Shown: one piece after another, positions 3,001-21,000 of the stretch | How the letters are laid out: every line of letters starts with the position of its first letter | Numbering within the stretch: the first letter of the stretch is position 1 | NCBI GenBank assembly: GCA_050575255.1 | Contig: JBNZDD010013686.1 | Location: 2,913,286-2,977,285, forward strand | DNA from: Harriotta raleighana | Lineage: Eukaryota | Reading direction: 5' to 3' | DNA length: 64,000 nucleotides | Made by a program: the position numbers

Positions 3001-6000
3001 CTTATTTTGAACAATTTATCCCATACATGTGTTTTGAAAAGCTTTCGTATATTTCACAAACTCATGTTCACCTACAAATACCGAGTCAATACACATCACA
3101 ATAAAATTCTATGAAGCCCTTAGAGACATCCCGCCGATGTGAACGCACTACATCAATTGCAAAGATTATTATTGTTACATTTATAATAATAATCCTTGCA
3201 TTTGATATAGTGCTTTTCACATCTTATCGACGACCCAAAGCGCTTCACAGAATATACTGTAAAGTGAATTGACTGTATATTTGTGGGCGGAATGCGGCAG
3301 CCAATTGCGCACAGCAGTGTCCCACAAACAGTCATGGATTGAAATGACCAATTTTATTATTGTGGTTATTTTGGAGGGATTATTATTAGGCATGTGGAGT
3401 AAGGAAACTTGCCCAAGGTTCGCCCTGATCTGCCTGCATTCGAAACAGATCTCATGCTTGTAAGGCGAGTGATCCAACCACTGAGCCACAGGAGTTCCAT
3501 TTGACATGTATGTTGAATAAACTCAGTATTTTTTCAACAAGTTAAAATGACATCTTTCAACTAAATCCATAAAACAACAAAGTCATTGATTGTTGGTCTT
3601 AATTTAATTCCAGCAAAATATCTAACATCTTATACAAGGTTGCCCAACAGTGAAGCACTTGTACACAGTGTAGCTGAGCCACACAACTCAGGAAACACTT
3701 GGGTTTGATTCCCAGTCTGTGCTCAGATGACTGAGGTCAGTCAGCTTTGTCATAATAGGGGCCCTTTATCCAGACACTGCTGAATCAGAGTGAAAAACAA
3801 TCAAACAGCGTTACAACTCCTGATCACTGACCAATAACTCATGTTGAAAGGTGTGCATATTGGACATATAGGAAGTTTTTGCTTGTTTGTGTGGCCCCTC
3901 AGAATCACATTGTCTGCCACGATCAATCCTCAGAAACAAAGAATGGCTTTTAGGGCAGACCCTGCTATCACAATATACTCTAGCATGAGTCACTGTCTGC
4001 AGGAGATAAATGAAGAAAATTGGTGGCAAAATATAAACTGAACTCTAAGTAAGAAATATTAATATTTTCAAATATATCGAGACAATAAAATGCTAAACTC
4101 ACATTCATCGCTGGAATAACTTGACATCATAATCTACAAATTTAATCATGTGTCATTCTTTCCTATGGTTCAGTACATCATAGACTATATCCACAGGTTT
4201 TAAATTTAAATCAAGTCATGTTTGTTGGTTTGATCCCTGTTCAGTGTCAGCATCATAGTTTTTTCCCTTTCCAGTGTTCCATCATTAGAAATATATGTTG
4301 GATTTAAAACCTTTTTTGCTATGGTTAAGGTTTTCAACAACTTCAGATGCAATTTCAAAAACATTTGTGTTGATTAAATATATAGTCTATTGAAAAGAGC
4401 ATCTTTTCATAACTGGTATCCTCCTTAAGAATTTCGCTTCAGGTGCAATTATTTTTCAGCAACTGAGTCCAAAATGGGTTTCAATCAATTTTAGATTTTA
4501 TGAAATTTTAAGCACAGTAATAGGGTTGGCCCTTTTTTGAGGTTAAGAAGAACAAGAAGAGAAGCCCCACAAGAAGAAAACCTACATTTTCTTCTGCAGA
4601 GAAAAGCTATTCCATACAGTGTTTTAACAAATAAAACTTAGAGGAAGTAAATATACCACATTTGTACAGGATTTATATCAAGGACTTTTGTTTAAAACTA
4701 TATTTGGAAAAATGCATTTGAGAACAGTAAGAACATATTTTTTAAAAAATGATTTTTAACAGCCTTGAAACATTCTTGACACTTACATTCATCATACAAA
4801 GATTACAACCTGGACTTGACGGGATTTGATAAAATTCACATACACGTTGGGAATAATTGTTTCTGAACATTCATGCTTTTTTGAGGTAAAGTAGATCACC
4901 AAATCTGTCTATTTATCACATTTTGATTGTCCACATATATTATTCTATCTTTTTCCTTCCCCCTCTTTTCTTTAAATGACTGTCTATGTTATATCTACAA
5001 CAAATTCACTTTGAACATTTGCTCCGTATCCATCTGAAACTAATGGCTTCAAACTTCTTACTACACACATAGCTGACAGTTCTTGTCAACTACCTTTGTG
5101 AATGGATCTTTATTCTGAATGACTCTGTCCACATAGCCTTGAGCACTGGCGTCTCATCATTGGGGCAATTTCTATGAAATTTAACTGCAGAAATATGAGC
5201 ATATTCTTTGCAAAGCTTATTTTGAACAAAAAATCCTGGTTGGTCTGAAGAGATGCATTTATTTTCTGATCCTACATATGACATATTTATTTAAAAATGG
5301 GTTACTGTAGATTTGATCTGTACAATACTTCTTTGAAAACGTGGCATAAATCTGCAACTGTTTTAGGAACAAATGATTCATTTCCACGACTATTATATTA
5401 AACAATTAGCAAAAATAGGCTATTTAACCAATGTCAACCAGTGACTATCACAGAAAATGGGAACAATCTACAGATCAATTTCATTAGTCCCCGTAAATGG
5501 TCTACATGTTTATTGCAATGCAGCCATGCATTTCCACAATAGTGTATTAGTGGAGCTGCTTTTTATTTTTCTAAAGAGATTTGATTGAAAGCAATTGTTC
5601 AAAGCATGGAAATAGTATTCTAAGGTCTGTGAATGAAGGCTCAGTTTGAAAAGTCATTAACTGTTCATATACCACAGGATGTTCAATTAACTTATGCATA
5701 TTACATAGTTGTATAGTTTTACACCTGGGCATGGTTCCATTGGAATTGGTTTGATATTTCATGGGCTTCTCAAAGTCATGATAAATCCTTTATTCACAAC
5801 TCTGTGAAAGCTCTGAATCTGGATCGAGACTATACCTTGAAATAAAGTCGAACAATATGAAAGTTTCAAATGAAGGACATAAATAACATTGCCTTCATTA
5901 TTTCCCATATCCTGGAGGTAAATGTTTAAATTACAGCACCATGAGGTGATGGGTTACCTGATTTATAACCCAGTGACATTTGCAACATTATACTGCTTTT

Positions 6001-18000: not shown

Positions 18001-21000
18001 CCAATTGCGCACAGCAGTGTCCCACAAACAGTCATGGATTGAAATGACCAATTTTATTATTGTGGTTATTTTGGAGGGATTATTATTAGGCATGTGGAGT
18101 AAGGAAACTTGCCCAAGGTTCGCCCTGATCTGCCTGCATTCGAAACAGATCTCATGCTTGTAAGGCGAGTGATCCAACCACTGAGCCACAGGATCTCCAC
18201 GATGTACACCCAATGTACACCCAGATGTTCCAGCTGGGCCTGACTTAATCCCAATGTGCATTACTTTACTGAAAGTAATTCAACTTTATCAATCAATCAA
18301 ATCCAAATTTTATTTATATAGCGCCTTTCACGTCGGGAGGACGTCCCAAAGCGCTGTACAGCCAAGTAGGGGGGGGGGGCTCAGGGAAAGGAGTAGGAAA
18401 AATTGACTGTATATTTGTGGGCGAAACGCGGCAGCCAAATTGCGCACAACAGTGTCCCACAAACACACACAGAAATGGGGGAAAAAAGGGGGGAAAAAAT
18501 GGCAAGGGGGAGAAATGGAGGGAAAAGCGGGGTGGGGTAAAATCAGGGAAGAAAAGGGGGGGGAGAAAGGGGGACAAGGGGGAAATCAGGGAGGGCAAAG
18601 AGGGAGAAATGTTGGTAAGTGGGAAGAGGGAGGGAAGGATGGGTAGGAGGCAAAACCAGGGAGAAAGGGGGGTAAGGGGGAAGAGGGAGGAAAGGGAGAG
18701 AGGGAAGGAGAAGAATAAAAAGGGGGAAAATCAGGGGGCAGGGGGAGTTTAAACAACAACAACAACATCAACAATAATAAACAAAAAAGTAAATAACAAT
18801 CAACAATAATAAACAAACACAACAACAACAATAGAAAACACAACAACAACAATTAATGACTGTCCAATGCTGGACATTACAGAACCAAAACAGGCCATTT
18901 GGCCCAACTAGTCTATGCCATTGTTTATGTTCCAGATAAACCTCCACACATTCTCACCTTTTCTCCCTATCTATCCTCCTCCCATTCTGAATTCCCTTCA
19001 TTCTTATATATGCTTGCTATTTCTATTATTCCATGCCCTAATCAATGCATTTGTGCTGATTATGCTGTGATATTTTTGGGATTTGGAAGTCATTCATAAT
19101 GTATTATTTTATACCATAGCTAACAAAAGGGAAATGGTCACTTTCTAACAACTGTTCAACTAAACAACAACAAAATTACATGCATAGAGTGCCTTTCACA
19201 TCGGGAGAATGTGAACAGTCAGGGGTCGGGATCCGAGCATAGGGGAAGGGGAAGGATGGAGTGGGAGGGGAGGGAGAGAGGTAGGAAGACAGCAGAAGGC
19301 ACGATCGAAAAGGAGGGTCTTGAGATTGGGTTTGAAGGAATCAAGGGAGGAAACAAGGGAAAGGGACTGTGGGATGGAGTTCCAGATTGTAGGGGCACTG
19401 TTGTGTGCGAGAGGGCACACAACAGTGAAGGTACCAATCTGAGTTTACATAATTTAGTGGAATAGTCCTTGTTATATATTCAGTAGCATTTATTCCATTC
19501 CCTTTTATTAGTATTTTCTTTACACTGAACAATGATAGCATTGATTTTTTTTTGTCATACAGAAACAGAAAGGTCAAGTGTGAGTTTTTCCACGTGTTAC
19601 CGGTGAGCTGTACCCACCTCAACTACTGTATCTGCTATTCTATGAACCTGCTGTTCGCATTTTATTTAATGTCTTGAGTGGATATGGTCCAAAGTATTTT
19701 AAAATCCTCTTTCGCTGCAGTACTTCTTGCTTCACAAATCACAGAGGGACAAAGGGTTAATAACAATAAGATTGGTACTTCAAAATTGCAGTCATTGGTA
19801 CATTAAAAAAACAGACTTGTGAGATTTCTAACCAGTCCGGAAGGGTGAGAATAGCTGCTTTGTCATCTTATCATAAATACACATATCCTGACATGGTGTC
19901 AGTTTATTCGCTTCTGTTGTTTGAAAATTAGTCCATTCACTGTCTTTTGGGTCCTGATTGGCTGCCATGTTTATTTAAGCAGTCTGAGAATGGTTGGTAA
20001 TGATAAACTTCTTCACGGGATATTAAACACTGTAATCCTTCACATTCCTAGTTGGTCTTAACAGTGCAGAATAGACTAAGTGGAAAGCTTTTTCTGAGAT
20101 ACTGTCTGTGTCTGCAACAGCAGCATTCGTTTAAAAGCTTCACTGGACTGAACATTTTTTCTTAAAATATTTCATTTGCTGGTTCATGAACTAGCACCAA
20201 TGATGTGTCTAAAATTCAGTACAGTCATTTGGAAAGCCCAACAAGTCAATTTCCTAATGCGGGAATAGTGGATCCACTATCTACATTGCTACTCTGCAAA
20301 TATACATTAGATACCTGTTGTTAAGCCAGTGAATTTAGACCACAAGTGAGTGGAGTTGAATTATGCATGAACAAAAATCTTGTGTCGAGAAGTCCACTAC
20401 CAAAAGTGGTAATCACGAGTTACATAATCACACACCTTCCCCAGGGTTTGGAACATTCAAAATGGAGAGCAATGTGAGTGTTACGTCAGACAATTCTATG
20501 AGTAATCTCATTCAGCGAAGCTGTAAGGGTCGAACCAAAGTGGGGAGAGCAAGGGTTAGGGGAGAAACAATTGCATGTGCCAGTGTAGTTAGAGTACTTT
20601 TCTGATGTTGTAGCTGGAACATGTTTTGGGATGGAGTAAAATAAGGTTTCCTCTGCAACATATTTAGACTTAGTGCTAAAACACCAAATTATCCTTTACC
20701 CCAAATGGTATGGATGTTCCCTCATTACTGATGTCCATTACTGTATCTCAGGTGGTAGCATTCTTGTTTCTGGATCAGAAATTTGCATGTTCAAACCCCA
20801 TTTGATTAATTGGGCCTTGGTGTTACACCTTAGCTGGTCATTCAGTGCAAAATTGGGAAGACTTACATTGTTTTTTTCCATTCGAGGTTAAACTGAGTTT
20901 CCTGCTGTCTGTGCATTTTTATTGAACCTCACCACTTTAAAAATCTTAAAGCACTTCACGAGTAATTACTGTCAAGTGTCATTGTAGGCAAATGCAGAAG

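What the first reader, a model, noticed from the sequence alone, without database searches (positions are those of the whole stretch)
3183..18199. Very recent 3 x 4900-bp tandem amplification bounded by same-strand SINEs
Seen: three units with only six visible substitutions, each junction inside a family-1 SINE. The internal SINEs B and C are chimeric: tail alleles of D (8099 T, 8111 C, 8133 T, 8152 G versus 3199 C, 3211 T, 3233 A, 3252 A in A) and the 5' end and flank of A. Established: this is the signature of non-allelic homologous recombination, as in Alu-Alu duplications. Inference: a SINE-driven copy-number variant that may still be polymorphic.
Basis: partly seen in the sequence, partly recalled or inferred. 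Interest (0 to 1): 0.7.

Follow-up and report, generated by a model that had tools for sequence, protein, structure and literature searches.

The report
SINE-bounded triple tandem repeat
A 4.9-kb stretch of non-coding DNA lying between two nearly identical short mobile elements has been copied head-to-tail three times by exchange between those elements, which is a clean but ordinary example of a well-known way genomes gain copies.

Summary
Window 3183-18199 is a gap-free head-to-tail array with a period of exactly 4900 bp. It consists of four minus-strand tRNA-related SINEs (A, B, C, D) separated by three copies of a 4.6-kb body. Ten columns vary among the units, and two more vary in D's head.

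B and C are identical to each other and are true chimeras. They carry a D-derived tail allele, D's long tail and D's left flank. They also carry an A-derived head allele and A's right flank. The exchange lies in a 241-bp block that is identical in A and D.

The unit has no recognisable coding or RNA gene.

The best reading is homology-driven unequal exchange between SINEs A and D, followed by one more unequal exchange. This is the same kind of event as an Alu/Alu-mediated duplication. Replicative template switching between the same SINEs cannot be told apart from it by sequence.

Copy number, read support and polymorphism could not be tested. The organism was not identified; I do not take it for human.

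The finding is ordinary: a new member of a known kind, of low interest.

The parts
3071..3173 (+). Older, diverged fragment of the same SINE family, lying tail-to-tail against SINE A
   Evidence: 75% identity to A over 104 bp, in opposite orientation.
3142..3216 (.). Imperfect palindrome formed by the two SINE tails at the left edge of the array
   Evidence: arms 3142-3173 and 3185-3216, 32 nt, 88% complementary, 11-nt spacer. DNA hairpin -24.8 kcal/mol, z = -9.5, 0 of 200 shuffles as good.
3183..3499 (-). SINE A, the left parental element (short ATT-type tail at 3183-3193, tRNA-like head at the right end)
   Evidence: A-derived alleles at 3211, 3233 and 3495, judged against copies at 30217 and 61928.
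3253..3493 (.). Exchange interval: the longest block identical in A and D (241 bp). The equivalents in B and C are 8153-8393 and 13053-13293
   Evidence: identity blocks; for the flanking markers.
3500..8071 (.). Unit body, copy 1. Single-copy in the window apart from a second repeat fragment at 6362-6596 with an imperfect (TTG)n at 6581-6625
   Evidence: No Pfam or Rfam match.
8072..8399 (-). SINE B, a chimera: D-type long tail, D tail alleles and D left flank, joined to A head allele and A right flank
8400..12971 (.). Unit body, copy 2 (private alleles at 8673, 9643, 9744, 10178)
12972..13299 (-). SINE C, a chimera identical to B
   Evidence: B vs C 317 of 317 identical; same flanks.
13300..17871 (.). 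Unit body, copy 3 (no private allele)
17872..18199 (-). SINE D, the right parental element (long tail; D-derived alleles at 17899 and 18194), followed by unrelated flank from 18200

Best explanation
The ancestral locus was SINE A, a 4.6-kb non-coding body, then SINE D. The two SINEs were independent insertions of one young subfamily, in the same orientation and about 98% identical. A misaligned homologous exchange paired D on one DNA molecule with A on the other and resolved inside their 241-bp identical block. This produced A-body-chimera-body-D. The chimera has D's tail half and A's head half. A second unequal exchange, most simply between the two 4.9-kb units misaligned by one unit, added the third copy. 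It duplicated the same chimera, which is why B and C are identical. Shown: the structure, the chimerism and the lack of indels. Inferred: that there were two steps, that the exchange was a crossover, and that it happened in the germ line. The amplified DNA has no recognisable gene, so the array is most likely a neutral structural variant.
For: The period is exactly 4900 bp with 0 gap openings over 10111 bp. Independent SINE copies at 30217-30548 and 61928-62256 align to exactly 3183-3499, so both array ends coincide with SINE ends. A vs D match at 311 of 317 positions, B vs C at 317 of 317, A vs B at 313 of 317 and B vs D at 315 of 317. Polarising against the two closest outside copies in alignment A1, B and C carry the D-derived allele at the 3199 equivalent and the A-derived allele at the 3495 equivalent. 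They lack the A-derived alleles at 3211 and 3233 and the D-derived allele at the 3494 equivalent. B, C and D share the same 22-nt tail and left flank. A, B and C share the same right flank. The two U1-private body changes (3594, 3841) are CpG-to-TpG/CpA transitions. This is what real mutation of a distinct copy looks like. Passages of PMC6071635 describe a full-length chimeric element at the junction as the hallmark of Alu/Alu-mediated rearrangement.
Against: No reads, second haplotype, other individuals or sister species could be examined, so neither the copy number nor the existence of the one-copy ancestral allele is shown. Target-site duplications, which would prove that A and D inserted independently, were not recognisable for any copy. 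A and D are much closer to each other (98.1%) than to any other copy in the window (at most 95.9%, gaps excluded), so their independence rests on their different flanks, tail lengths and private alleles. The variant pattern is odd for simple post-duplication drift. Four of the six body variants are private to the middle unit and none to the third. All six lie in 3594-5278 and none in 5279-8082 (post hoc one-sided P = 0.0034). A 317-bp repeat is at or below the length usually thought to support efficient homologous recombination (passage in PMC6071635). That favours the replicative rival.
Confidence: 0.65

Rival explanations
1. The same SINE pair was used, but by a replicative route. A broken or stalled fork, possibly provoked by the SINE-tail palindrome at the left edge, re-invaded at the homologous SINE on the sister molecule (BIR/MMBIR-type template switching). 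This happened once per added copy, or twice within a single event.
For: Passages of PMC6071635 state that Alu-sized homology is thought too short for efficient NAHR and propose template switching/MMBIR, SSA or MMEJ, all of which also leave an intact chimeric element. A strong hairpin-forming inverted SINE pair sits exactly at the left boundary. That inverted repeats stall forks and break is recalled knowledge, not tested here. The four changes private to the middle unit could be errors of repair synthesis; that BIR is mutagenic is also recalled.
Against: The product is identical to that of a crossover, so nothing in the sequence favours this route positively. There are no inserted bases, inversions or extra template-switch scars. 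The third unit carries no private change. The palindrome may be a coincidence, since SINE copies are dense here (26 HSPs in 64 kb).
Confidence: 0.2
2. Assembly artefact or wrong copy number. The locus truly holds one, two or more than three units, and the assembler mis-resolved reads from near-identical units or from two haplotypes.
For: The units are 99.8-99.9% identical with no length difference, even in G10 (6300-6309), the imperfect (TTG)n (6581-6625) and the (TAA)7 tail. One variant (4743) is a T6A5 vs T5A6 boundary shift of the kind polishing can produce. The scattered variant pattern could be heterozygous sites assigned inconsistently.
Against: There is no N or other break inside or beside the array. 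All three units are pairwise distinct. Two variants are CpG transitions. The junction element is a biologically sensible chimera with parental markers on the correct sides. A false duplication would not create that unless at least one real junction exists.
Confidence: 0.12
3. Circle-mediated amplification. Intrachromatid exchange between A and D excised a 4.9-kb circle carrying exactly the B-type chimera. The circle was copied by a rolling-circle process and re-integrated by homology.
For: The geometry fits. The excised circle would carry D's tail half joined to A's head half, as B and C do (inference). B and C are identical.
Against: It needs more steps than unequal exchange and nothing in the sequence calls for it. 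No replication origin or rolling-circle gene lies in the unit (0 Pfam matches at E <= 0.001).
Confidence: 0.02
4. A composite mobile element whose terminal repeats happen to be SINE-like, in the tandem repeat-internal-repeat-internal-repeat form known for LTR elements.
For: It has same-orientation terminal repeats of about 320 bp around a 4.6-kb interior.
Against: The terminal repeat occurs alone and 5'-truncated at many places in the window. The interior has no gag, pol, reverse transcriptase or any other Pfam domain. It has no copy elsewhere in the window except a 235-bp repeat fragment.
Confidence: 0.01

Closest known systems
Alu/Alu-mediated rearrangements (AAMR) of primates, duplication type
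   Same: Two same-orientation SINEs a few kb apart serve as the substrates. The junction is a full-length chimeric SINE with no inserted or lost bases, and the exchange lies in the longest shared identity block (passages of PMC6071635; an AluY/AluSx chimera at an F9 deletion in passages of PMC10965312).
   Different: The SINE here has a tRNA-related head (tRNA model hits) and an ATT-type tail, not a 7SL-derived Alu. The substrates are 98% identical, closer than most Alu pairs. The outcome is three copies, and no gene is involved.
[quoted passage not shown]
   Same: A repeat on each side of a segment gives the first duplication. The duplicated units then give further copy gains (passages of PMC12314368).
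   Different: That model concerns expanding gene families. Here the amplified DNA is non-coding. I have no evidence that the window comes from a coral.
DUP-TRP/INV-DUP complex triplications
   Same: A segment is present three times, with repeats at the breakpoints (passages of PMC10965312).
   Different: Those carry an inverted middle copy mediated by inverted repeats. Here all copies are direct, and no inverted self-match of 400 bp or more exists.
Macrosatellites (kb-scale tandem arrays)
   Same: Head-to-tail units of kb size (recalled comparison, not tested).
   Different: Only three units. The origin is still legible in the SINE junctions. There is no evidence of copy-number variation or function.

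Membership tests
SINE-SINE homology-mediated tandem duplication (AAMR type) | Two repeats of one family in direct orientation bound the amplified segment | tested here: met
   A at 3183-3499 and D at 17883-18199, both on the minus strand, 311 of 317 identical.
SINE-SINE homology-mediated tandem duplication (AAMR type) | The junction element is full length and chimeric, with one end from each parent | tested here: met
   B and C carry D alleles at 4 tail sites plus D's tail length and left flank. They carry A alleles at 2 head sites plus A's right flank. These include one D-derived and one A-derived marker judged against outside copies.
SINE-SINE homology-mediated tandem duplication (AAMR type) | No inserted or deleted bases at the junctions | tested here: met
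   0 gap openings in 10111 bp.
SINE-SINE homology-mediated tandem duplication (AAMR type) | The parental repeats are independent insertions (own target-site duplications) | tested here: inconclusive
   The outer flanks, tail lengths and private alleles differ, but no clear target-site duplication was seen for any of 8 copies inspected.
SINE-SINE homology-mediated tandem duplication (AAMR type) | An ancestral one-copy allele and/or a reciprocal deletion allele exists; junction-spanning reads exist | not testable with these tools
tRNA-derived SINE | tRNA-related 5' head | tested here: met
   The heads of older copies score as tRNA: 1261-1332 at 45.2 bits and 47427-47498 at 47 bits, against a gathering score of 29. 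These heads align with A's head. A's own head is weak at 18.5 bits, E = 0.36.
tRNA-derived SINE | Short, non-coding, with a simple-repeat 3' tail | tested here: met
   About 317-330 bp with an ATT-type tail. Its 101-aa open frame has no protein homologue and no Pfam match.
tRNA-derived SINE | Dispersed copies of graded divergence with 5' truncation | tested here: met
   17 of 20 HSPs outside the array start within 3183-3188 (the tail end) and stop anywhere from 3221 to 3499, at 68-100% identity.
tRNA-derived SINE | A partner LINE sharing the 3' end | not tested
   No reverse-transcriptase match occurs anywhere in the window. The rest of the genome is not available.
LTR-element tandem (repeat-internal-repeat-internal-repeat) | The internal region encodes gag/pol | tested here: not met
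   None of the unit's open frames of 55 aa or more has a Pfam match at E <= 0.001. The only looser match in the unit is sub-threshold: P2_C, 16.6 bits against a cut-off of 25.
DUP-TRP/INV-DUP | Inverted middle copy | tested here: not met
   Only direct self-matches were found.

The most novel reading that the evidence does not exclude
The array is not the sum of two ordinary crossovers. Instead it is the product of one replicative accident. The tail-to-tail SINE palindrome at 3142-3216 broke a fork at SINE A, and repair synthesis switched twice between D and A, laying down both extra units at once. If so, the window catches a kb-scale tandem array (a nascent macrosatellite) at birth, with its trigger still in place and with error-prone synthesis explaining the cluster of changes private to the middle unit.
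Probability: 0.1. Interest if true: 0.4.

Novelty: new member of a known kind. Interest (0 to 1): 0.15.

Why it matters
It matters little by itself. It is a very clean non-primate example of repeat-mediated copy gain, in which both parental SINEs, the chimeric junctions and the exchange interval can all be read directly from the sequence. In practice it flags a 15-kb stretch whose copy number should be verified in the assembly. It would also make a convenient marker if it proves polymorphic. No gene dosage effect is expected, because nothing coding or RNA-like was found in the unit.

Tried and rejected
(1) Target-site duplications as a test of independent insertion of A and D and of the hybrid nature of B and C. 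No convincing duplication was seen for any of 8 copies, so the test is inconclusive.

(2) Coding content.
- of 28 long open frames, 2 had Pfam matches at E <= 0.01, both below the curated cut-off. They are P2_C at 16.6 bits for 7069-7365 and Ilm1 at 17.6 bits for 55720-56007.
- 0 of 150 and 0 of 92 stop-to-stop frames of 55 aa or more matched at E <= 0.001. Before these scans I dropped frames lying wholly inside 8083-18193, since they duplicate unit 1. I also dropped 4 frames containing an N (246 became 242).

(3) The 167-aa frame at 7349-7852(-) against 1.84 billion representatives. It gave 1 hit at E = 8.3e-7. That E-value is the sum of about five weak matches of one 39-residue stretch to an internal repeat of a 1004-aa zinc-finger-containing protein. 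I rejected it as evidence of a gene.

(4) The SINE-derived 101-aa frame against the 5.8-billion protein set found no candidate. This gave no clue to the organism.

(5) Rfam on the unit body gave 0 matches at E <= 0.1. The weak miRNA-like matches at 3136-3229 (32 bits or less against gathering scores of 80 or more) merely reflect the SINE-tail hairpin.

(6) A literature search with short tail motifs, to try to name the SINE family, returned 6 unrelated papers. The family remains unnamed.

(7) The LTR-element, DUP-TRP/INV-DUP and circle readings are covered under rivals and membership tests.

(8) Microsatellite length as a clock. There are only three mutable tracts per unit, too few to decide anything.
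Full report
**Observation.** A self-comparison of the window finds two long direct matches and nothing else of 400 bp or more on either strand. The first is 3183-13293 against 8083-18193: 10111 bp, 14 mismatches, no gap. The second is 3183-8393 against 12983-18193: 5211 bp, 6 mismatches, no gap. The period is exactly 4900 bp. Position by position, unit 1 and unit 2 differ at 10 sites, units 2 and 3 at 4, and units 1 and 3 at 6. That gives ten variable columns. Six are private to unit 1: 3199, 3211, 3233, 3252, 3594 and 3841. Four are private to unit 2: 3773, 4743, 4844 and 5278. 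None is private to unit 3. No N lies in the array; the window's only N are single letters at 29034 and 61894, and I left them alone.

**The junction element is a SINE.**
- The 317 bp at 3183-3499 recur at 8083, 12983 and 17883, and in many dispersed, diverged copies. One search gave 26 HSPs in the window. Outside the array identity ranges from 68 to 100%, the 100% being a 37-bp tail fragment. The best full-length copies, at 30217-30548 and 61928-62256, are 90-92% identical.
- Of the 20 HSPs outside the array that touch the element, 17 start within 3183-3188 and end anywhere between 3221 and 3499. This is the 5'-truncation pattern of retroposed copies read on the minus strand.
- The left end is an ATT-type simple repeat.
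- The right end is tRNA-related. ARAGORN and Rfam call 'tRNAs' at 1261-1332 and 47427-47498. Both are the heads of older copies of this family (1264-1554 and 47187-47496). The head of A itself scores only 18.5 bits.
- Target-site duplications were not recognisable for any copy.
- I could not name the family or the organism. My recollection that such tails occur in SINEs of aquatic animals is untested.
- I do not take the window for human. The Rfam scan found no SRP/Alu-like match, and the SINE has a tRNA-related head.

**Chimerism.**
- A and D differ at six of 317 positions. Four are in the tail half (3199, 3211, 3233, 3252) and two are at the head end (3494, 3495).
- B and C are identical to each other (317 of 317). 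They match D at the four tail sites and A at the two head sites.
- They also share D's 22-nt tail and D's left flank, and A's right flank.
- I polarised the sites against the two closest outside copies in alignment A1. The alleles at 3211, 3233 and 3495 are derived in A. Those at 17899 and 18194 are derived in D. Site 3252 is ambiguous.
- B and C thus carry a derived marker of each parent on the expected side. This is positive evidence of a hybrid, beyond mere flank continuity.
- The exchange lies between 3252 and 3494, in the 241-bp block that is the longest stretch identical in A and D.

**Content of the unit.**
- Apart from the SINE, only 6362-6596 is repeated elsewhere in the window (7 HSPs). 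This is a second repeat family, followed by an imperfect (TTG)n.
- No frame of 55 aa or more in the window outside the redundant copies has a Pfam match at E <= 0.001: 0 of 150 and 0 of 92. Frames inside 8083-18193 and four frames with an N were left out.
- Two of 28 long frames had sub-threshold matches.
- The longest frame of the unit (167 aa, 7349-7852, minus strand) found one protein among 1.84 billion. Its score is the sum of repeated weak matches to an internal repeat, so I do not count it as a gene.
- Rfam finds nothing in the body.
- Every frame was searched on its own.

**Age and history.**
- If the six body variants arose after amplification on a star-like tree, they amount to 4.4e-4 per site. 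The per-lineage divergence of A and D is 9.5e-3. The amplification would then be roughly twenty times younger than the SINE insertions. This is a relative statement only, because the mutation rate is unknown.
- The two changes private to unit 1 are CpG transitions, as expected of real mutation.
- Two features are unexplained. All four remaining changes sit in the middle unit. All six body variants lie in the left 39% of the body (post hoc one-sided P = 0.0034).
- The three mutable tracts of the unit have the same length in all copies, but they are too few to be informative.

**Mechanism.** The simplest account is unequal homologous exchange between D and A, giving two units joined by a D-tail/A-head chimera. 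A second unequal exchange between misaligned 4.9-kb units then gave three units and two identical chimeras. The passages I read in PMC6071635 (I saw the listing, the start of the abstract and the found passages, not the supplements) make two relevant points:
- A full-length chimeric element is the hallmark of Alu/Alu-mediated rearrangement.
- Alu-sized homology may be too short for efficient NAHR, so template switching (MMBIR), SSA or MMEJ are proposed alternatives that leave the same product.

Sequence alone cannot separate these routes here. A point in favour of a break-initiated route is that SINE A lies tail-to-tail with an older copy at 3071-3173. The pair forms a 32-nt-arm palindrome exactly at the left edge of the array, with a hairpin of -24.8 kcal/mol and z = -9.5. 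That such inverted repeats are fragile is recalled knowledge, not tested here.

Passages of PMC12314368 give the general model of transposon-seeded duplication followed by recurrent NAHR. Passages of PMC10965312 describe an Alu chimera at a deletion, and triplications with an inverted middle copy. The latter is not the case here, since all units are direct.

**What stayed unchecked.**
- Read support, copy number, polymorphism, the other haplotype and orthologous loci were not examined.
- I searched no eukaryotic genome or repeat library.
- The supplements of the cited papers were not seen. Those of PMC6071635 list the characterised Alu pairs and could refine the comparison of substrate identity and spacing.

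**Verdict.** The finding is a textbook-type SINE-mediated tandem amplification of non-coding DNA: a new member of a known kind, of low interest. The main open risk is an unverified copy number in the assembly.

Noticed in passing
window 1261-1332 (+) and 47427-47498 (-): ARAGORN and Rfam call these tRNA-Val(gac) and tRNA-Ala(tgc) above the gathering score. Both are the heads of old copies of the same SINE family (1264-1554 and 47187-47496, 76-78% identical to SINE A), so they are probably not free-standing tRNA genes.
   Followed up: partly
window 3142-3216: SINE A lies tail-to-tail against an older inverted copy. The pair forms a strong imperfect palindrome at the exact left edge of the array. 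Weak miRNA-model matches there are far below their gathering scores.
   Followed up: partly
window 18280-18760 and 29085-29340: A different repeat family shares a central module of about 110 nt with the SINE (18401-18465 is 94% identical to 3267-3330). It has another tail (a 4-nt repeat) and a long G/A-rich part, which gives the GC-skew peak at 18001-20000. This looks like two SINE families built on one core.
   Followed up: partly
window 6362-6625: A fragment of a further repeat family inside the unit, with 7 HSPs elsewhere in the window (for example 19163-19381 at 74%). It is followed by an imperfect (TTG)15. It lies within the 126-aa open frame at 6287-6667, which has no Pfam match.
   Followed up: partly
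window 3594-5278 versus 5279-8082: All six variable sites of the unit body lie in the left 39% of the body and none in the right 2.8 kb of any copy. Four of the six are private to the middle unit. This is unexplained. It could reflect later homogenisation, repair-synthesis errors or polishing noise.
   Followed up: partly
window 61829-61967: A 73-bp unit repeated twice (89% matches) that duplicates the tail region next to the SINE copy at 61928-62256. A single N at 61894 lies inside it and was left alone.
   Followed up: no
window 1-64000: There is no Pfam domain in any of 242 open frames of 55 aa or more, and no RNA family other than the two SINE heads. The whole 64 kb looks like repeat-rich non-coding DNA, either intergenic or a very long intron.
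   Followed up: partly
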